Shown: in pieces, positions 21,110 through 33,582 of the stretch
How positions within the stretch are numbered: position 1 is the first letter of the stretch
How the letters are laid out: each line of letters opens with the position of its first letter
Source: an uncultured Rubrivivax sp.
Lineage (GTDB): Bacteria; Pseudomonadota; Gammaproteobacteria; Burkholderiales; Burkholderiaceae_C
Reading direction: 5' to 3'
Assembly: GCA_964371495.1 (NCBI GenBank)
Contig: CAYJOA010000004.1
Location: 2,625-66,624, forward strand
DNA: 64,000 bases
Notes under the pieces: model-generated
The model's database searches: none
Told to the model about the DNA's origin: nothing
Seen by the model: the letters and a program-made list of their open reading frames with translations, nothing else
Position numbers and translations under genes: made by a program

Positions 21110-21346
21110 TCAGTCGCAGCAGTTGCCTCGCACGTCGGGTTCACCGGACCGCTGCACTTGGATCGGCGGGCAGGGCACGGTGCCATAGGAGCAGAAGACG
21201 CAGCAGTCGCCGGCCAACGGCTTGAGCACGGCGTGACACTGTTCGCATTCGTAGAACCACTGGCAGGCATCGGTGGGCATGGTCTCGGCCTTGGCGTGGC
21301 CGCACAGCGGGCAGGTGAGCGTCGATTTCGCGGTGACCGTGGTCAT
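21110..21346 (-). CDS. GDCCVxC-domain small Cys-rich metal-binding protein
   Basis: 78 aa with CPLCGH...CQWFYECEQCH...LAGDCCVFCSYG...CPP and C-terminal NCCD. ATG overlaps the stop of the upstream CDF gene (ATGA). Confidence 0.75.
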   Translation of the reverse strand: MTTVTAKSTLTCPLCGHAKAETMPTDACQWFYECEQCHAVLKPLAGDCCVFCSYGTVPCPPIQVQRSGEPDVRGNCCD

Positions 21347-22338
21347 CTCGCGCTCTGCACCGGGTCGTGATCGTGGCCAGGCCCGTGGCCGTGGTCGTCA
21401 TGCGTGGCGAAGGATCGATGCCCACCCTTGCCGACCCCTGGCGGCAGAGCTACGCAGCCGTCGCAAAAGGCCTCGCGCACCACCTGGAGCGTCACGTGGC
21501 GAATCTCGAAGTGCTCATGCAGCTCGTCGGTGGCGTGCTTCAGGAACGCATCGTCGCCGCCGCCGGCCGGCATCACCAGATGCGCGGTGAGCGCTGTCTC
21601 GCTGGTGCCCATGGCCCACACGTGCAGGTCGTGCACCTGCGCCACGCCGGGCAGTCCCTGCAGCAGCGCCTGCACCGCGCGCAGGTCCACGCCGTCGGGC
21701 ACGCCGTCGAACAGCAGGTGCAGGGATTGCCTGAACAGGTTCCAGGTGCCGACCACGATGACCGCGGCGATGATCAGGCTGGCCACTGGGTCGAGCCAGG
21801 TCCAGCCCTGCCACAGCGCCAGGCAGCCGGCCACCACCACGCCGGCCGAGACCAGCGCGTCGGCGGCCATGTGCAGGAAGGCGCCGCGGATGTTGAGGTC
21901 GCTCTCGCTGCCGCGCATGAACAGCAGGGCGGTGGCCGTGTTGACGACGATGCCGATACCGGCCACGACCATGATCGTCACGCCCTCGACGGCATGCGGC
22001 GACTGCAGGCGGTGCAGCGCCTCCCAGGCCAGCGAGCCCATGGCCACCAGCAGCAGCAGCAGCGCATTGACGAAGGCGGCCAGGATGCTGGCGCGCTTCC
22101 AGCCGTAGGTGTGGCGCGCATCCGGCCGCAGCTTGCCGGCCAGCGCCCCGCCCCAGGCCAGCACCAGACCGATGACGTCGCTGAGGTTGTGGCCGGCATC
22201 GGCCAGCAAGGCCAGCGAATTGATCTTCCAGCCGTAGAAGGCCTCGATGGCGACGAACGCCATGTTCAGGCCAATGCCGATGGCAAACGCCGCGTTGTAG
22301 CTGGCGGGGGCGTGGCTGTGATCATGGCCAGCACTCAC
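21343..22338 (-). CDS. Cation diffusion facilitator (CzcD/ZitB-like) with His-rich termini
   Basis: Start taken at GTG 22338 (VSAGHDHSHAP...), overlapping the OsmC stop. HNLSD (TM2) and HMAAD (TM5) H-D/H-D metal site. C-terminal HDDHGHGPGHDHD. Confidence 0.85.
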   Translation of the reverse strand: MSAGHDHSHAPASYNAAFAIGIGLNMAFVAIEAFYGWKINSLALLADAGHNLSDVIGLVLAWGGALAGKLRPDARHTYGWKRASILAAFVNALLLLLVAMGSLAWEALHRLQSPHAVEGVTIMVVAGIGIVVNTATALLFMRGSESDLNIRGAFLHMAADALVSAGVVVAGCLALWQGWTWLDPVASLIIAAVIVVGTWNLFRQSLHLLFDGVPDGVDLRAVQALLQGLPGVAQVHDLHVWAMGTSETALTAHLVMPAGGGDDAFLKHATDELHEHFEIRHVTLQVVREAFCDGCVALPPGVGKGGHRSFATHDDHGHGPGHDHDPVQSAR

Positions 22339-22763
22339 GGGGTTTCGACTTTTCGGTGCAGCACGCCGGACAGTTGCGTGCCGGGTGATACGGTGTTGAA
22401 GACGGTGCCGAACTTGCGCACGTTCTCGTGCAGCAGGTCCAGCCGGCGCTCGGGCTCGTCGCTGTCGACGATGATTTCGTACGTGATGGATTCCAGCTTC
22501 GGCGGCACTTCCTGGCGCACGCCGTGCACATGCACCTCGACCCCACGCAACTCGAACTTCAGGATCGGCACGACGCGCTCGATGCCCTTGATGATGCACC
22601 CGGACAGCGCCGCCAGCAGCAGCTCGGCCGGGTTGAAGGCCTGCGGGTTGCCGGCCAGGTCGGTATCCAGGCTCAGCGCGGCCTGCTTGCAGCGTGCCTC
22701 GCTGGCGTGCGCCGACAGCTGCACCGAGACGACGTCGAAGGTCAGCTTCGTCGGTGCGTTCAT
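22335..22763 (-). CDS. OsmC/Ohr-family peroxiredoxin-like protein
   Basis: 142 aa with AELLLAALSGCIIKG, typical of OsmC. Start overlaps the CcdA stop by 4 nt. Confidence 0.7.
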   Translation of the reverse strand: MNAPTKLTFDVVSVQLSAHASEARCKQAALSLDTDLAGNPQAFNPAELLLAALSGCIIKGIERVVPILKFELRGVEVHVHGVRQEVPPKLESITYEIIVDSDEPERRLDLLHENVRKFGTVFNTVSPGTQLSGVLHRKVETP

Positions 22764-23464
22764 GTGAGGCTCAGCGTTGCTGCCCACTCTGGCGCCAGCC
22801 CTTGCGCCACCCACCACAGGCCGGCGGCAGCCAGCACGACGGCAAAACTCCGTCGGCCCGGCAGCCAGGCGCTGGCGGCGGCAAATCGTTTCATCATCGC
22901 ACTCGCGGCACCAGGCATCGCACCGGCCACCAGCAGCAACGCACTGTGGCCGATGCCGTAGGCCAACAGCAACGCCGCGCCCCACCACATCGACGCGCCG
23001 AAAGCGCTGCCCGAGCCGGCCAGCGCCAGCGCGGCGGCCAGCGCCGGTGTCGCGCAGGGGCTCATCACGGTGCCGATCAACGCGCCCAGCAGCGCCGCGC
23101 CCCACAGGCCCGAGCGTGCCAGCCGTCGTTGAAGCGCCGCTGGCAGCTGCACGCCGCAAGAAGCGGCCTGCGAGCGCCACAGCCACACCGCGGCGGCGAT
23201 CACCAGCACGCCCACCGCCACCGACCAGGGTCCGGGCAAGGTGCCCAGCAACAGGCCCAGCCGGGCAGCGGCCAGGCCCATGACAAGCAAGGCCACATTC
23301 ATGCCGGCCACGAAGGCCAGCGCCAGCATCCAGGCGCGGCGTGGCGAGACCGCCTGCCCGCCGACAAAACCCACCGCCACCGGAACCGCGGCCAGCACGC
23401 AGGGTGAGGCCGATGTCAGCACGCCGCCGACGAAGGCCGCGGCCAGACCTTCGGCGCCGGTCAT
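22760..23464 (-). CDS. CcdA/DsbD-family transmembrane thiol-disulfide electron transporter (SoxV-like)
   Basis: Two conserved membrane-embedded Pro-Cys motifs (LTSASPCVLAAVP and VMSPCATPALAA), ~6 TM, 234 aa. Confidence 0.85.
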   Translation of the reverse strand: MTGAEGLAAAFVGGVLTSASPCVLAAVPVAVGFVGGQAVSPRRAWMLALAFVAGMNVALLVMGLAAARLGLLLGTLPGPWSVAVGVLVIAAAVWLWRSQAASCGVQLPAALQRRLARSGLWGAALLGALIGTVMSPCATPALAAALALAGSGSAFGASMWWGAALLLAYGIGHSALLLVAGAMPGAASAMMKRFAAASAWLPGRRSFAVVLAAAGLWWVAQGLAPEWAATLSLT

Positions 23465-32051: not shown

Positions 32052-32077
32052 TTCGGGAGCTCCTTGCATGGGTGCCG

Positions 32078-32731
32078 TCACTTGTTGATGGGAGACTCGG
32101 GCGACAGCAGGTAGGCTGTCAGGTCCGCCACCTGTCTGGGCGACAGGATCTTGTTGTGGCCCAGGCGCGGCATGGCCGAGCAGGCGTTGTAAGCGCGCGA
32201 GTTGTATATCTTTTCGTAGGTGTACTTGACGACGGGCTCGCTCTGCCCGCGCAGCTTGCCAAAGCCCTGGAGCGTGGAACCCAAATTGCCCCATGCGGCC
32301 TCGCCCGACTCACCCTGGTGGCAGGCGTAGCAATTGCCGCCGCGAACGGCGTTCGGGCTGCTGGGGATGAAGCTGCCGATGCGATAGGCGAAGCCGTCGT
32401 TGAAGACCTTGCGGCCTGCCTTCCAGTCGCCCATCAGCTTGCCGTCGTCCGGGTAGACGATGTTCTTGGCCTCGCGGGCGCGGATGGTCTCTGCCAGTGC
32501 GTCCGAAGGGTTGGCCCGCGTGTTCGTGCAGTCGATCTGGGTCTGGTCCTGCTGCAGACGCGTCAAGTCCTGCCCGGGGCCGGCGACAAAGCTCTGGGCC
32601 ACGTACTCATTGACCAGCTTGGCTGTGTTGGGGTCTGTGCGCTCGGGTGTGGCGCAGCCGGTGGTCAGAAGGGCGACGGCCGCTGCGCCGCAGGCGGCAC
32701 CGATGGTGAGGCGGAAAGAAGTGTTCAGCAT
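32078..32731 (-). CDS. soxX: SoxX c-type cytochrome subunit (long form)
   Basis: 217 aa, leader with LLTTGC, single haem motif GGNCYACHQ, ...MPRLGHNKILSPRQVADLTAYLL. Sits between soxA and soxY. Confidence 0.8.
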   Translation of the reverse strand: MLNTSFRLTIGAACGAAAVALLTTGCATPERTDPNTAKLVNEYVAQSFVAGPGQDLTRLQQDQTQIDCTNTRANPSDALAETIRAREAKNIVYPDDGKLMGDWKAGRKVFNDGFAYRIGSFIPSSPNAVRGGNCYACHQGESGEAAWGNLGSTLQGFGKLRGQSEPVVKYTYEKIYNSRAYNACSAMPRLGHNKILSPRQVADLTAYLLSPESPINK

Positions 32732-32748
32732 GGTTCGTTTCCTCCGTT

Positions 32749-33582
32749 TCAGCGGCGCATGCCAGGCAGGTCGAGCTTGGCGCCTTCGGCCTGCTTGGTG
32801 AGGTAGGAGATCAACGCCACCGCGGCCGGCGAGCCAAAGTCGATGTCAGGCAAGCGCATCTGCCAATGGCAGTCCCACATGCGGTGCTGCAGAGTGCGCA
32901 CGGCGTTGTGCGATACGCGATAGGTCGGCCACGAACTCATCACGTTGTCGGTGTGTTCCTTGTTCAGGCCGTTGAACAGTGCCTGCAGCCGGATGCGCTT
33001 GCCATCGGCGGCGTGGCAGGTGGCGCAGGAAAAGTCCATCGGGCCGTGCTGGCGCCAATAAAGCGCTTCGCCCACCTTGACCGATTCCACCTCCTTGGGG
33101 TGGCTCATCGGCATCGCGATCCTGTAGCCGTCGGATTGCGCCGCCACGTAGGCGGTGATGGCTTCGATCTCGGTGTTGGACTCGTTGCGGCCTTCGTGAG
33201 CGAAGGGCTGCTTCTTCACTTGCGCTGCGTCACGGCCCTGCAGCGTGACCATGCAGGTGACGAGGCGGGACTCCAGGTCCTGCACACGTTGGGTGTCGGC
33301 AAACCAGCGCGGCAGTTGCGCGTAGGCGCCCTTGAGCACACCGGCGCCGAGGCCGAAGTCGCACTTTTCCAACGACACGTTCTTCGGTCCGGCCGCGGCC
33401 TTGAACAGACGCTCGCCCCGGTCGATGACCAGCAGCCCGGGGTTGCCGTCCTTGTCGGCCAGGGCCAAGCGGTAGGCCTGCACGGAAGGGTCGGCCTGTT
33501 GCGACCATGTTCCCGTGCTCGTGGCTGCCATGGCCGAAAGCAGAAGGGCACGCCATGCACGGCGCGAACTGAAAAGCTGCAT
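32749..33582 (-). CDS. soxA: SoxA cytochrome subunit (monohaem type)
   Basis: 277 aa with signal peptide, a single CATCH haem motif, and ...RMWDCHWQMRLPD... containing the conserved SoxA Cys region. Confidence 0.85.
   Translation of the reverse strand: MQLFSSRRAWRALLLSAMAATSTGTWSQQADPSVQAYRLALADKDGNPGLLVIDRGERLFKAAAGPKNVSLEKCDFGLGAGVLKGAYAQLPRWFADTQRVQDLESRLVTCMVTLQGRDAAQVKKQPFAHEGRNESNTEIEAITAYVAAQSDGYRIAMPMSHPKEVESVKVGEALYWRQHGPMDFSCATCHAADGKRIRLQALFNGLNKEHTDNVMSSWPTYRVSHNAVRTLQHRMWDCHWQMRLPDIDFGSPAAVALISYLTKQAEGAKLDLPGMRR

What the first reader, a model, noticed from the sequence alone, without database searches (positions are those of the whole stretch)
21110..33582. SoxB-less Sox module wired to rhodaneses, thioredoxins, CcdA, permeases and a metal exporter, all on one strand: candidate undescribed periplasmic sulfane-sulfur/thiol relay
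Every gene from 33582 down to 21110 is on the minus strand. The order is soxA, soxX, soxY, soxZ, a TlpA-like redoxin, two low-GC rhodaneses, a C-terminal-Cys mini-protein, a CxxCH ORF, an ArsP-like permease, a tandem rhodanese, DUF2892, an atypical MBL, a small GCANC thioredoxin, DUF2798, a rhodanese, a thioredoxin, CcdA, OsmC, a CDF exporter and a GDCCVxC protein. Together with the permease/thioredoxin pair just downstream (19059-20765), that gives four rhodanese proteins (at least five domains by eye), five thioredoxin-fold proteins including the TlpA-like redoxin, and two UPF0718 permeases. The window contains no soxB (the hydrolase that releases sulfate from SoxY-bound thiosulfonate) and no soxCD. 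In canonical Sox biochemistry SoxAX loads thiosulfate onto the SoxY Cys and SoxB is required for turnover, so SoxAXYZ alone is a loading device without a release step. Here rhodaneses, the MBL or reductive thioredoxins could unload or transfer the sulfane sulfur. The block is bracketed by arsenic modules (an Arr-like enzyme upstream, arsM/arsI/arsC/acr3 downstream) and includes a metal exporter and metal-thiolate proteins. That suggests, speculatively, sulfur mobilisation for metalloid/metal thiolation or detoxification (for example thioarsenate chemistry) rather than lithotrophy.
Basis: partly seen in the sequence, partly recalled or inferred. Interest (0 to 1): 0.7.

Follow-up and report, generated by a model that had tools for sequence, protein, structure and literature searches.

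The report
Arsenic-island Sox and thiol-handling gene module
A conjugative plasmid carries a genuine but SoxB-less thiosulfate-loading system (SoxAXYZ) placed at the end of an arsenic-resistance operon and interleaved with permease, rhodanese and thioredoxin genes; the arrangement recurs in other bacteria and gives testable candidate genes for how microbes process arsenic-sulfur compounds.

Summary
Window 19059-33582 is one co-directional run with true soxA/X/Y/Z, no soxB or soxCD, four rhodanese proteins, four thioredoxin-fold proteins (not five), CcdA, two CSC-motif ArsP-family permeases, a CDF and a GDCCVxC protein. It is not one bespoke relay. It is a mosaic of two regulons. The first is soxAXYZ-tlpA behind a conserved TGAT-N4-ATCA box beside a Crp-family gene. 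The second is a set of operons behind a motif, GCATCCTTT-N12-TCGTCT, tied to an adjacent Cys-rich SigZ-like ECF sigma. Sigma and crp are the last genes of the ars operon, so arsenite probably induces both (inferred). The core order recurs in Pseudaquabacterium pictum W35 and in metagenome contigs. The extra rhodaneses, the C-terminal-Cys protein and DUF2798 are later insertions. The sox genes are optional in this backbone. TlpA, Trx+CcdA, the metallo-beta-lactamase and rhodanese match known Sox accessory types (SoxS/W/V/H/L). This SoxA superclade never had soxB within 10 kb (0 of 46 loci), so a host SoxB acting in trans is not excluded. The recurrent arsenic linkage appears undescribed and fits the published, untested idea that Sox acts on monothioarsenate. 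Interest is moderate; it is a new variant of known kinds.

The parts
34933..38893 (-). ars operon: acr3 (37829-38893), arsR (37493-37819), arsI (36949-37479), two LMWP-type arsC (36440-36940, 35929-36435), arsM (34933-35916)
   Evidence: Pfam. NCBIfam: acr3 447 bits (cutoff 283), ArsI 133 (cutoff 116), arsenite methyltransferase 362 (cutoff 263). Gaps between genes are 13 nt or less (gene calls).
34326..34943 (-). SigZ-like ECF sigma factor with four invariant cysteines and no anti-sigma gene; its start overlaps the arsM stop by 11 nt
   Evidence: Pfam Sigma70_r2/r4. TIGR02959 SigZ 145 bits, below the cutoff of 169. Cys conserved in 31 of 32 orthologues. Coordinates.
33712..34329 (-). Crp/FNR-family regulator; overlaps sigma by 4 nt
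   Evidence: cNMP_binding; weak FtrB/CRP/FixK matches. Present before soxA in all six loci of the window's SoxA clade.
33684..33697 (-). CTGAT-N4-ATCAT palindrome upstream of soxA; candidate Crp/FNR-type operator
   Evidence: The only exact match in the window. A TGAT-N4-(A/G)TCA box is conserved upstream of soxA in window, L011, L012, L013, L014 and L015.
31260..33582 (-). soxA (32749-33582), soxX (32078-32731), soxY (31593-32051, Tat signal, C-terminal GGCGG), soxZ (31260-31571)
   Evidence: All four are above NCBIfam equivalog cutoffs. SoxA is closest to the Starkeya novella type II SoxA 3OA8, 263 bits. The haem CxxCH and the RMWDC Cys-ligand motif are present.
30717..31247 (-). Periplasmic TlpA/ResA-like thiol-disulfide oxidoreductase (WCPFC motif), 12 nt after soxZ
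   Evidence: Redoxin/AhpC-TSA; ResA/TlpA/DsbE-like. Follows soxAX(YZ) in L011-L017 and L156.
30662..30688 (-). ECF-type promoter-like motif GCATCCTTT-N12-TCGTCTC upstream of the rhodanese/p106 insert
   Evidence: Three exact matches in the window against 0 expected. The same motif precedes the equivalent rhodanese in L073.
28960..30501 (-). Inserted segment: atypical periplasmic rhodanese (29800-30501), lipoprotein-type rhodanese with CATGAR active site (29312-29785), and a 106-aa periplasmic OB-fold protein ending in GC-COOH (28960-29280)
   Evidence: Pfam; active-site alignment. Absent from P. pictum L015 at this position. The p106 family has 69 homologues with the C-terminal Cys kept in 15 of 16 aligned, the exception being an apparently frameshifted sequence. 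AF2 model pLDDT 70.7 with weak OB-fold matches.
28398..28883 (-). ORF with one CxxCH; doubtful gene
   Evidence: No Pfam or NCBIfam hit. Found only in copies of this plasmid. Not related to the 5-haem cytochrome that fills this gap in L012, L014 and L033.
28251..28277 (-). ECF-type promoter-like motif 20 nt before arsP1
   Evidence: In a PWM scan of all fetched loci, 30 of 37 hits lie directly upstream of arsP1 homologues.
27179..28231 (-). ArsP-family permease (350 aa) with TPFCSCS motif
   Evidence: PF03773 261 bits. Weak SaoE / SO_0444 matches below cutoff. 84-88% identical in L011, L014, L015 and L007.
26142..27131 (-). Inserted periplasmic tandem rhodanese (N-domain Cys, C-domain Asp)
   Evidence: Pfam; alignment. 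Absent from L015 at this position.
24894..26053 (-). DUF2892/YgaP-TM membrane protein (25823-26053) and periplasmic SoxH-related MBL (24894-25835) in which GGQDHR replaces HxHxDH
   Evidence: SoxH_rel models 150 and 147 bits, below cutoffs. The QDHRWLGN motif is invariant in 26 orthologues down to 38% identity, with the H196, D221 and H263 equivalents kept.
24362..24863 (-). Thioredoxin_3 / MTH895-ArsE family small thioredoxin-like protein (24627-24863, GCANC) and inserted DUF2798 (24362-24592)
   Evidence: TIGR00412 93 bits, cutoff 62. Trx_3 follows ArsP_1 in 40 of 43 ArsP-centred loci. DUF2798 is absent at this position in L015.
21110..24287 (-). Cytoplasmic rhodanese (23904-24287, CSSGPR), membrane-anchored periplasmic thioredoxin (23461-23889, CASC), CcdA (22760-23464), OsmC-like (22335-22763), CDF/ZitB-like exporter (21343-22338), GDCCVxC protein (21110-21346). 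Gaps are 11 nt or less, or the genes overlap.
   Evidence: Same order in P. pictum L015. The rhodanese, CcdA and Trx each weakly match parts of the fused TsoB model NF045694.
18155..20998 (-). Third ECF-type motif (20972-20998), second ArsP-family permease (19320-20765, CSC motif), second Thioredoxin_3 (19059-19295), tandem USP (18155-19039)
   Evidence: The same ArsP(481 aa)-Trx_3 pair ends the module in L073.
12361..16855 (+). Convergent neighbours: ArrA-type arsenate reductase (12361-14919), ArrB (14964-15722), TorD-like chaperone (15781-16425), weak Trx-like ORF (16445-16855)
   Evidence: ArrA scores 898 bits to Shewanella ArrA 6CZ7 with the RGRY motif kept. The NCBIfam ArrA model gives 1015 bits, below the cutoff of 1600. 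ArrB 225 bits, below the cutoff of 450.

Best explanation
The block is a mosaic, arsenic-controlled module on a conjugative element. It is built from two regulons that evolution has repeatedly placed together.

SHOWN BY SEQUENCE:
(a) acr3-arsR-arsI-arsC-arsC-arsM-sigma-crp forms one tightly packed operon.
(b) soxAXYZ-tlpA follows, behind a conserved Crp/FNR-type box.
(c) Three further transcription units (the rhodanese/p106 unit, the arsP1 unit and the arsP2 unit) each sit behind the motif GCATCCTTT-N12-TCGTCT. In other genomes this motif travels with the Cys-rich SigZ-like ECF sigma and the ArsP-family permease.
(d) SoxAXYZ is a canonical type II system.
(e) TlpA, the thioredoxin plus CcdA, the metallo-beta-lactamase (MBL) and the rhodaneses are the usual kinds of Sox accessory proteins.
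(f) The MBL belongs to a conserved subfamily with a changed metal site. That subfamily is found next to either soxAX or arsP.

INFERRED MECHANISM:
1. Arsenite derepresses ArsR, so sigma and Crp are made and switch on both regulons.
2. In the periplasm SoxAX oxidatively couples a thiosulfate-type donor to the SoxY cysteine. The donor is thiosulfate or its structural analogue monothioarsenate.
3. The leaving group is removed in one of three ways: by a host SoxB acting in trans, by the SoxH-type MBL, or spontaneously if it is arsenate, because arsenate esters are labile (established chemistry).
4. The periplasmic rhodaneses, the C-terminal-Cys OB-fold protein, TlpA and Trx/CcdA clear or pass on the remaining sulfane sulfur and keep the carrier cysteines reduced.
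5. The CSC-motif ArsP permeases, with their Trx_3 partners, the cytoplasmic rhodanese, OsmC, the CDF and the GDCCVxC protein, deal with thiophilic arsenicals and metals on the cytoplasmic side.

The net role is handling arsenic-sulfur species and sulfane sulfur under arsenic stress. It is not stand-alone lithotrophy.
For: - Family identities.
- Operon packing and the sigma/crp overlaps.
- Motif upstream of arsP1, arsP2 and the rhodanese unit: 3 exact matches against 0 expected. In all fetched loci, 30 of 37 PWM hits lie before arsP1 homologues and none before soxA, crp or sigma.
- The Crp-type box is unique in the window and conserved in six loci.
- Sigma has four Cys invariant in 31 of 32 orthologues. 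It lies immediately 3' of an ars gene on the same strand in 8 other loci.
- The core order is conserved in the isolate P. pictum W35 and in contigs with SoxA 80-92% identical, beside ars, aioAB or arrAB.
- In the wider SoxA superclade, 12 of 32 loci of at least 10 kb contain arsP1+Trx_3, against 0 of 11 for the more distant SoxA loci (SoxA <50% identity, 4 of them soxB-linked). The gene order differs in Thiobacillus-type loci (L019, L023, L034), so the association has re-formed or been kept through rearrangement.
- The QDHR-MBL lies directly beside soxAX in L016, L054, L055, L057 and L156, and beside arsP1 in L076, L078, L095, L104 and L112.
- The sequences inserted in this plasmid add three rhodanese proteins and a C-terminal-Cys protein.
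- Literature: soxS/V/W are thiosulfate-induced sox genes (PMC5748708). SoxH has been proposed as the hydrolase where SoxB is missing (PMC10045233). Sox has been proposed to act on monothioarsenate as a thiosulfate analogue (Edwardson 2014, as cited in PMC6620896).
Against: - No experiment supports the model, and all regulation is inferred from sequence.
- Sox is dispensable for the backbone. L073 lacks crp-soxAXYZ, L011 has lost soxYZ, and only 2 of 43 ArsP-centred loci carry sox, one of them with soxB.
- The soxAX-TlpA-MBL triad also occurs with no arsenic genes nearby (Sphaerotilus L156).
- SoxA active-site motifs are the same as in soxB-linked SoxA, so there is no sign of adaptation to an arsenic substrate.
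- Sox genes were not consistently arsenite-induced in Thioalkalivibrio (PMC6620896).
- The permease substrate is unknown. Related families are annotated as Cu/Zn or organometal exporters.
- Host SoxB status is unknown, and 28% of the source contig was not seen.
Confidence: 0.4

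Rival explanations
1. Independent modules co-selected on a resistance island. The sox genes are an ordinary auxiliary thiosulfate-oxidation cassette that uses SoxB (and rDsr, sHdr or SoxCD) encoded in the host chromosome. The ArsP/Trx_3, CDF and GDCCVxC genes are separate metal(loid) efflux units. Their proximity reflects hitch-hiking on mobile DNA, not shared chemistry.
For: - Two separate promoter/regulator systems divide the block.
- The backbone exists without sox (L073, L007, and 41 of 43 ArsP-centred loci). soxAX-TlpA-MBL exists without arsenic genes (L156).
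- soxB is never linked in this SoxA superclade, even in Thiobacillus-type sulfur oxidisers (0 of 46).
- SoxA is canonical.
- The element also carries cus/copper genes, a type IV secretion system and candidate defence genes, as mosaic plasmids typically do.
Against: - crp overlaps sigma, which overlaps arsM, and soxA starts 129 nt after crp. This ties sox expression to the ars operon in the window and in L011.
- arsP1+Trx_3 lies within 10 kb of 38% of SoxA loci of this superclade, in different gene orders and lineages.
- The same unusual MBL subfamily serves both units.
- Successive insertions added sulfurtransferases under the sigma-type promoter, not random cargo.
Confidence: 0.3
2. One reading: a self-contained SoxB-independent relay. 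SoxAX loads thiosulfate on SoxY, and the rhodaneses, the MBL or reductive thioredoxins replace SoxB. This mobilises sulfane sulfur to thiolate arsenic or metals (for example arsenite plus sulfane sulfur giving monothioarsenate) as a detoxification route.
For: - No soxB in the window, in 72% of the 107.9-kb contig, or within 10 kb in any related locus.
- The element is conjugative, so it must work in whatever host receives it.
- Three catalytic-Cys rhodanese domains, two of them periplasmic, and a C-terminal-Cys carrier-like protein.
- A SoxH-type hydrolase has been proposed in the literature to substitute for SoxB.
- Rhodanese chemistry (sulfane transfer to thiophilic acceptors) would in principle accept arsenite. 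This last point is inference.
Against: - The extra rhodaneses and p106 are recent inserts, absent from P. pictum and most relatives. The conserved core therefore has only one small cytoplasmic rhodanese.
- The MBL metal site is altered and its activity is unknown.
- No known enzyme other than SoxB hydrolyses SoxY-thiosulfonate (established Sox biochemistry).
- Host soxB has not been excluded.
Confidence: 0.15
3. Respiratory coupling. SoxAXYZ feeds electrons from thiosulfate or sulfide through periplasmic c-type cytochromes to the plasmid's periplasmic ArrAB, which has no membrane-anchor gene. The host could then respire arsenate with reduced sulfur as the donor.
For: - ArrA (898 bits to 6CZ7), ArrB and a TorD-like chaperone lie within 3 kb of the block, and no arrC was seen.
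- Arr genes are also adjacent in L013 and L103.
- A 5-haem cytochrome sits between tlpA and arsP1 in L012, L014 and L033.
Against: - Arr is on the opposite strand and is absent from most related loci. Others carry the arsenite oxidase AioAB instead (L011, L087), which runs the opposite redox direction.
- The window has no multihaem cytochrome.
- This does not explain the permease, Trx_3, OsmC and CDF part.
Confidence: 0.1

Closest known systems
Type II SoxAX with SoxYZ, as in Starkeya novella (PDB 3OA8), and the Paracoccus-type sox locus with its accessory genes soxS, soxW (thioredoxins), soxV (CcdA-like) and soxH (metallo-hydrolase)
   Same: SoxA, X, Y and Z all pass the curated equivalog models. 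SoxA scores 263 bits to 3OA8 and has one haem and the RMWDC Cys ligand. SoxY ends in GGCGG. A periplasmic thioredoxin-fold reductant, a Trx+CcdA pair and an MBL are encoded alongside.
   Different: No soxB, soxCD or soxR. Control appears to come from a Crp-family gene and box instead of the ArsR-type SoxR. The cluster sits at the 3' end of an ars operon on a conjugative element. The MBL has GxQDHR in place of HxHxDH. The gene order is interleaved with permease genes.
Truncated or scattered Sox systems of Beta- and Gammaproteobacterial sulfur oxidisers (soxAX, soxYZ and soxB unlinked; no soxCD), and Allochromatium SoxL rhodanese (recalled from memory)
   Same: soxAX is not adjacent to soxB throughout this SoxA superclade (0 of 46 loci). 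A rhodanese is encoded with the sox genes.
   Different: In those organisms soxB exists elsewhere and the system serves energy metabolism. Here host soxB is unknown, the cluster is mobile, and it is tied to arsenic genes.
ArsP organoarsenical exporter family (TCDB ArsP; PF03773) paired with small thioredoxin-like proteins, such as SaoE+SaoT of the SAO locus, and the SO_0444 Cu/Zn exporters
   Same: PF03773 membership and the conserved Cys-Ser-Cys motif. A small thioredoxin-fold partner is encoded next door in 40 of 43 loci. The context is heavy metals or metalloids.
   Different: Scores lie far below the SaoE and SO_0444 cutoffs (130 against 325; 100 against 300), so this is a separate subfamily. 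It is preceded by its own ECF-type promoter motif and a Cys-rich sigma. The substrate has not been tested.
ECF sigma factors that sense signals directly through cysteines without an anti-sigma factor (CorE-type, recalled from memory), and B. subtilis SigZ
   Same: An ECF sigma whose best match is SigZ (145 bits). No anti-sigma gene is adjacent. Four cysteines are invariant and a C-terminal Cys-containing tail is present.
   Different: It falls below the SigZ equivalog cutoff of 169. Relatedness to CorE was not tested. The inducer is unknown.
Published hypothesis that Sox enzymes process monothioarsenate as a thiosulfate analogue (Edwardson et al. 2014, cited in PMC6620896), and growth by monothioarsenate disproportionation in strain MLMS-1 (recalled from memory)
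   Same: A Sox loading system is physically and apparently transcriptionally tied to arsenic genes, which is what the hypothesis would predict.
   Different: The hypothesis concerned the ordinary chromosomal Sox of soda-lake bacteria, and its transcript support was mixed. No dedicated arsenic-linked sox cluster was described in the papers found.

Membership tests
Sox thiosulfate-oxidising system | SoxA c-type cytochrome with CxxCH and a Cys haem ligand | tested here: met
   TIGR04484 230 bits (cutoff 110). CATCH and RMWDCH motifs. 263 bits to 3OA8.
Sox thiosulfate-oxidising system | SoxX monohaem partner | tested here: met
   TIGR04485 79.6 bits (cutoff 61). CYACH motif.
Sox thiosulfate-oxidising system | SoxY carrier with C-terminal GGCGG, plus SoxZ | tested here: met
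   TIGR04488 168 bits (cutoff 125) and TIGR04490 135 bits (cutoff 76). The sequence ends in GGCGG.
Sox thiosulfate-oxidising system | SoxB thiosulfohydrolase encoded with the system | tested here: not met
   A verified SoxB query found nothing in the window or in any locus with SoxA at least 52% identical. It was not found in record positions 29997-107855 of the source contig. The rest of the contig and the host genome were not seen.
Sox thiosulfate-oxidising system | SoxCD sulfane dehydrogenase (complete system only) | tested here: not met
   No sulfite-oxidase-type Mo protein appears among the Pfam assignments of window genes.
Sox accessory thiol-redox set (SoxS/SoxW thioredoxins, SoxV CcdA) | Periplasmic CxxC thioredoxin-fold proteins and a CcdA-type membrane electron conduit in the sox locus | tested here: met
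   TlpA-like protein with WCPFC and a signal peptide; Trx with CASC and an N-terminal anchor; DsbD_TM 67 bits.
Sox accessory thiol-redox set (SoxS/SoxW thioredoxins, SoxV CcdA) | Orthology to Paracoccus SoxS, SoxW and SoxV | not tested
   No reference sequences were to hand, and the PDB search returned only generic TlpA/ResA-type proteins.
SoxH-type periplasmic metallo-beta-lactamase-fold hydrolase | MBL fold and neighbourhood with soxAX | tested here: met
   PF00753 55 bits. Adjacent to soxAX in L016, L017, L054, L055, L057 and L156.
SoxH-type periplasmic metallo-beta-lactamase-fold hydrolase | Canonical HxHxDH metal-binding motif | tested here: not met
   GGQDHR replaces it, and this is invariant in the subfamily. 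MBLs next to the more distant SoxAX in L066-L070 keep HxHGDH. Scores against the SoxH-related NCBIfam models are below cutoff (150 against 280).
ArsP organoarsenical efflux permease family | PF03773 fold with a vicinal Cys pair (CSC) in a transmembrane helix | tested here: met
   261 and 228 bits. TPFCSCS and AVCSCT motifs. The significance of the motif is described.
ArsP organoarsenical efflux permease family | Transport of trivalent organoarsenicals | not testable with these tools
   Requires MIC and transport assays.
Respiratory arsenate reductase ArrAB | ArrA catalytic subunit (curated model; RGRY motif) | tested here: inconclusive
   898 bits to Shewanella ArrA 6CZ7, with RGRYS and the SHSxxCAEA region conserved. 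NF041714 gives 1015 bits, below the cutoff of 1600. That the motif separates Arr from Arx is recalled from memory.
Rhodanese sulfurtransferases | Catalytic Cys at the start of the active-site loop | tested here: met
   Present in 29312-29785, in the N-domain of 26142-27131, and in 23904-24287. Absent (Asp) in the C-domain of 26142-27131. Displaced in 29800-30501.

The most novel reading that the evidence does not exclude
The arsenic-island soxAXYZ-tlpA-QDHR-MBL unit is the missing enzymology of thioarsenate turnover. SoxAX would couple monothioarsenate, a structural analogue of thiosulfate, to SoxY. Arsenate would then leave without SoxB, either spontaneously (arsenate esters are labile) or through the altered MBL. 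The sulfane sulfur would be cleared by TlpA, Trx-CcdA and the rhodaneses. This would feed arsenate to ArsC/Acr3 or ArrAB, all under an ArsR-to-sigma/Crp cascade. It would be the first dedicated genetic system for thioarsenic species, and it is mobile on plasmids.
Probability: 0.15. Interest if true: 0.85.

Novelty: new variant of a known kind. Interest (0 to 1): 0.55.

Why it matters
Thioarsenates dominate arsenic speciation in sulfidic waters and paddy soils. No enzyme system for them has been genetically defined in the papers I found. The only proposal is that Sox might act on them, and transcript support for that is mixed.

This analysis delimits a compact, conserved and partly mobile gene set that puts Sox carrier chemistry under apparent arsenic control. 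A culturable isolate, Pseudaquabacterium pictum W35, carries the core set. That makes the question directly testable.

Independently of that question, the analysis defines four reusable pieces:
- an anti-sigma-less, Cys-rich ECF sigma with a candidate cognate promoter;
- a widespread ArsP/Trx_3 pair;
- a metallo-beta-lactamase subfamily with a rebuilt metal site that partners SoxAX;
- a periplasmic OB-fold family with an obligatory C-terminal cysteine.

If the independent-modules rival is right instead, the finding is an ordinary mosaic resistance island with a passenger sox cassette.

Tried and rejected
- The consensus sigma-70 promoter and terminator scan of 19000-38990 was uninformative: 0 promoters, and 13 terminator-like sites against 11.7 expected.
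- I tested whether the CxxCH ORF is a remnant of the 5-haem cytochrome found at the same position in L012, L014 and L033. It shows no similarity.
- I looked for SoxA active-site changes specific to the arsenic-linked clade. There are none: RMWDCHWQMR is shared with soxB-linked SoxA.
- I searched for the cluster on sequenced plasmids. Only a partial Comamonas plasmid module without sox and one Ideonella permease matched by DNA. One distant SoxA matched by protein.
- Look-ups of the first window gene with two alternative starts failed. The left flank was reached through CusA instead.
- I tried to establish whether P. pictum or the unseen 30 kb of the contig carries soxB.
- Literature searches for sox with arsenic islands, for ArsP with rhodanese and ECF sigma, and for thioarsenate with soxA/soxY found no description of this arrangement. 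That library is incomplete, so this is not proof of absence.
- The Foldseek search with the p106 model gave only weak generic OB-fold matches, none at E <= 0.001. It is therefore not assigned to CusF/SilF or CcmE.
- ArxA (anaerobic arsenite oxidase) was considered for the Mo enzyme. It was rejected in favour of ArrA-type because of the strong 6CZ7 match and the RGRY motif.

Full report
**1. What is in the sequence**

The window is GC-rich (about 0.67). From 41223 down to 16896 every credible gene is on the minus strand.

- soxA 32749-33582, soxX 32078-32731, soxY 31593-32051 and soxZ 31260-31571 all score above NCBIfam equivalog cutoffs.
- They are followed by a TlpA/ResA-like redoxin (30717-31247).
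- Next come two rhodaneses of lower GC (29800-30501, 29312-29785).
- Then a 106-aa protein ending in Cys (28960-29280).
- Then an ORF with one CxxCH and no family (28398-28883).
- Then an ArsP_1 permease (27179-28231).
- Then a tandem rhodanese (26142-27131).
- Then DUF2892 (25823-26053).
- Then a metallo-beta-lactamase, MBL (24894-25835).
- Then a Thioredoxin_3 protein (24627-24863) and DUF2798 (24362-24592).
- Then a rhodanese (23904-24287), a thioredoxin (23461-23889) and CcdA (22760-23464).
- Then OsmC (22335-22763), a CDF (21343-22338) and a GDCCVxC protein (21110-21346).
- After a 344-nt gap come a second ArsP_1 permease (19320-20765), a second Thioredoxin_3 (19059-19295) and a tandem USP.

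A SoxB sequence taken from a canonical locus and verified at 857 bits (cutoff 550) finds nothing in the window. All other sizeable genes in the window have other assignments.

Small corrections:
- There are four, not five, thioredoxin-fold proteins in the stated ranges.
- Only three of the five rhodanese domains have the catalytic Cys.
- The CxxCH ORF is doubtful.

**2. Where it comes from**

SoxA is found verbatim on a 107,855-bp metagenome contig at 110x coverage, and on many smaller contigs of the same ENA study. The window is positions 37616-101615 of that contig.

The right flank carries a coupling protein, relaxase, TraX, ArdC and ParB. Window 43-54 kb is a VirB4-VirD4 type IV secretion system. 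The left flank carries copper genes. The element is therefore a conjugative plasmid or ICE loaded with metal and metalloid genes.

No soxB was seen in the 72% of the contig that could be reached. Type II SoxA is almost absent from PLSDB plasmids.

**3. The arrangement is conserved, nested and mosaic**

Contigs whose SoxA is 80-92% identical carry the same order: sigma-crp-soxA-soxX-(soxYZ)-tlpA-arsP-MBL-Trx_3-rhodanese-Trx. Their neighbours are arsenic genes in most cases:
- L011 sits beside arsR-arsI-arsC-acr3-arsH and aioAB.
- L013 sits beside an Arr-like enzyme and aioA.
- L012 and L014 add a 5-haem cytochrome.

The isolate Pseudaquabacterium pictum W35 (L015, SoxA 81% identical) has a divergent arsR and then sigma-crp-soxAXYZ-tlpA-arsP-DUF2892-MBL-Trx_3-rhodanese-Trx-CcdA-OsmC-CDF.

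DNA comparison shows that the window equals this core plus three insertions:
- 30724-28185: two rhodaneses, p106 and the CxxCH ORF.
- 27175-26073: the tandem rhodanese.
- 24626-24287: DUF2798.

A sister contig, L073, has acr3-arsR-arsC-sigma-TlpA-rhodanese-rhodanese-p106-arsP-MBL-Trx_3-DUF2798-Trx-CcdA-arsP-Trx_3 with no crp and no sox genes. A Comamonas plasmid has ars-sigma-arsP-Trx_3-rhodanese-OsmC-CDF. L011 has lost soxYZ. Sphaerotilus sp. has soxA-soxX-TlpA-IS-MBL with no arsenic genes.

Two units therefore recombine:
- an S unit: soxAX[YZ], TlpA, MBL, often with Trx/CcdA;
- a P unit: sigma, ArsP, Trx_3, often with rhodanese, OsmC, CDF and GDCCVxC.

**4. How strong is the association**

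Among 46 genome loci whose SoxA is at least 52% identical to the window's, 13 contain arsP1+Trx_3. Restricting to loci of at least 10 kb gives 12 of 32. Fourteen contain ars, aio or arr genes. None contains soxB.

Among 11 loci with more distant SoxA, none has arsP and four have soxB directly downstream.

In Thiobacillus-type loci the order is ars-(sigma)-arsP-Trx_3-OsmC-soxAXYZ, which is different from the window. The linkage has therefore survived or re-formed through rearrangement. A neighbour-joining tree puts the window with L011-L015 in one tight clade that uniformly has the crp-sox-tlpA-arsP order.

Sampling from the other side gives a different picture. Of 43 metagenome loci centred on close ArsP homologues, 40 have Trx_3, 18 have sigma, 15 have arsenic genes, 7 have the MBL and only 2 have sox, one of which includes soxB. 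Sox is thus a recurrent but optional guest of an ArsP/Trx_3 backbone.

**5. Regulation inferred from sequence**

The sigma start codon overlaps the arsM stop by 11 nt, and crp overlaps sigma by 4 nt. With gaps of 13 nt or less upstream, acr3-arsR-arsI-arsC-arsC-arsM-sigma-crp reads as one operon. Sigma lies directly 3' of an ars gene on the same strand in eight other loci.

The motif GCATCCTTT-N12-TCGTCTC occurs three times in the window against 0 expected. All three copies are on the minus strand in intergenic DNA, before the rhodanese/p106 insert, before arsP1 and before arsP2. A weight matrix scan of all fetched loci gave 37 hits. Thirty lie immediately upstream of arsP1 homologues, and none lies before soxA, crp or sigma.

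The sigma is SigZ-like, below the equivalog cutoff. It has four cysteines invariant in 31 of 32 orthologues, and no anti-sigma gene is adjacent.

Upstream of soxA a CTGAT-N4-ATCAT palindrome is the only exact match in the window. It is conserved in all six loci of the clade, although the surrounding intergenic DNA has diverged.

The block is therefore divided between two regulators, and both are encoded at the tail of the ars operon. The proposed arsenite-to-ArsR-to-sigma/Crp cascade is an inference.

**6. The components**

- *SoxA.* It is closest to the type II SoxA of Starkeya novella (263 bits). Its active-site stretches are identical to those of soxB-linked SoxA. Nothing suggests a new substrate specificity.
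- *MBL.* It is SoxH-related, but GxQDHRWLGN replaces HxHxDH. This motif is invariant in 26 orthologues down to 38% identity, and the other ligand positions are kept. MBLs beside more distant SoxAX keep HxHGDH. It is a conserved, abundant subfamily (more than 5000 homologues), annotated only as 'MBL fold metallo-hydrolase'.
- *p106.* It belongs to a family of 69 detected homologues. The C-terminal ...GC-COOH is kept in 15 of 16 aligned sequences; the one exception looks frameshifted. A signal peptide is present. The model is an OB-fold barrel of moderate confidence. In chromosomes it follows a DUF3373 gene.
- *ArsP permeases.* Both carry the CSC motif that marks this transporter family and its SaoE/SO_0444 relatives.
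- *Rhodanese, CcdA and Trx.* The three separate genes each weakly match parts of a known fused protein model, TsoB.
- *Neighbouring Mo enzyme.* It is ArrA-type: 898 bits to 6CZ7, with the RGRY motif kept.

**7. Interpretation**

Canonical biochemistry says SoxAX loads thiosulfate on SoxY and SoxB releases sulfate. Working intermediates ride on a SoxY persulfide (PMC5336275 abstract). Periplasmic thioredoxins and CcdA-like SoxV belong to sox loci. TlpA, Trx/CcdA, the MBL and a rhodanese are therefore expected company for Sox, not exotic wiring.

What is unusual is the following combination: a mobile element, no soxB or soxCD in cis, a Crp-type rather than SoxR-type control, a position at the end of an ars operon, and repeated fusion with an ArsP/Trx_3 unit that shares the same odd MBL.

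The best-supported reading (confidence about 0.4) is an arsenic-induced module that handles sulfane sulfur and arsenic-sulfur species. SoxAX would load a thiosulfate-type donor. Release would come from a host SoxB, from the MBL (a role proposed for SoxH where SoxB is missing), or spontaneously if the leaving group is arsenate.

The published suggestion that Sox could act on monothioarsenate makes the arsenic linkage meaningful, but it is untested.

The main rival (about 0.3) is simple co-selection of independent cassettes, with chromosomal SoxB doing the release step. Sox-to-Arr electron coupling (about 0.1) does not explain most of the genes.

**8. Verdict**

This is a new variant of known kinds: a Sox system, ArsP-family efflux and thiol-redox maintenance. 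The value lies in the conserved arsenic-Sox linkage, the inferred two-regulator cascade, and a culturable isolate in which both can be tested. Interest is 0.55.

Noticed in passing
window 34326-34943 (-); motif copies at 20972-20998, 28251-28277 and 30662-30688 (-): A SigZ-like ECF sigma with four invariant cysteines and no anti-sigma gene. A sharply conserved candidate cognate promoter, GCATCCTTT-N12-TCGTCT(C/T), occurs almost only upstream of ArsP-family permease genes across about 150 loci. This may be a directly thiol- or metalloid-sensing sigma.
   Followed up: partly
window 28960-29280 (-); L071 10001-10321; L072 10001-10312: A family of roughly 103-110-aa periplasmic proteins with a predicted OB fold and a conserved C-terminal ...GC-COOH. 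On chromosomes the gene follows a DUF3373 gene. In L072 it lies near a YeeE-like Sulf_transp gene, a rhodanese and multihaem cytochromes. Function unknown.
   Followed up: partly
window 24894-25835 (-); L156 10001-11032: A metallo-beta-lactamase subfamily in which HxHxDH is replaced by an invariant GxQDHRWLGN. It is abundant in Rubrivivax, Sphaerotilus and Thiobacillus relatives and is encoded beside soxAX or arsP. Its metal and its activity are unknown.
   Followed up: partly
window 56344-59116 (-), in the low-GC stretch 56-59 kb: Three genes in a 0.53-0.55 GC island. Two match PADLOC candidate defence proteins Hp2 and Hp1 (145 and 257 bits), and one carries a PDDEXK_GAPS4 domain. This is probably an anti-phage system riding on the plasmid.
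   Followed up: partly
window 10369-10868 (+): A 70-aa RadC fragment and a 101-aa fragment consisting only of a Molydop_binding domain, next to MobB/DUF2478 and the arrA cluster. They look like scars of an earlier rearrangement or a broken second molybdoenzyme gene.
   Followed up: no
window 16896-18080 (-); L085, L087: A thiolase gene recurs at 86% identity beside OsmC/CDF in two unrelated metagenome versions of the module. Its recurrence in a metal/sulfur cluster is unexplained.
   Followed up: no
L012 4191-5558; L014 about 4095-5447; L033 about 3092-4363: A 455-aa periplasmic protein with five CxxCH motifs fills the tlpA-arsP gap in some versions, at exactly the position where this plasmid has the rhodanese/p106 insert. 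The gap is a hot spot for accessory periplasmic redox proteins.
   Followed up: partly
window 253-8545, and 7.6 kb left of the window (L010): Copper/silver resistance genes: a multicopper oxidase, CusCBA (CusB has a CusF-like domain), and just outside the window a Cu P-type ATPase and an ABC1/UbiB kinase.
   Followed up: no
window 38894-39100: An imperfect inverted repeat, ATACTTGAA-TTG-TTGAAGTAT, upstream of acr3. It is a plausible ArsR operator for the eight-gene operon that ends in sigma and crp.
   Followed up: no
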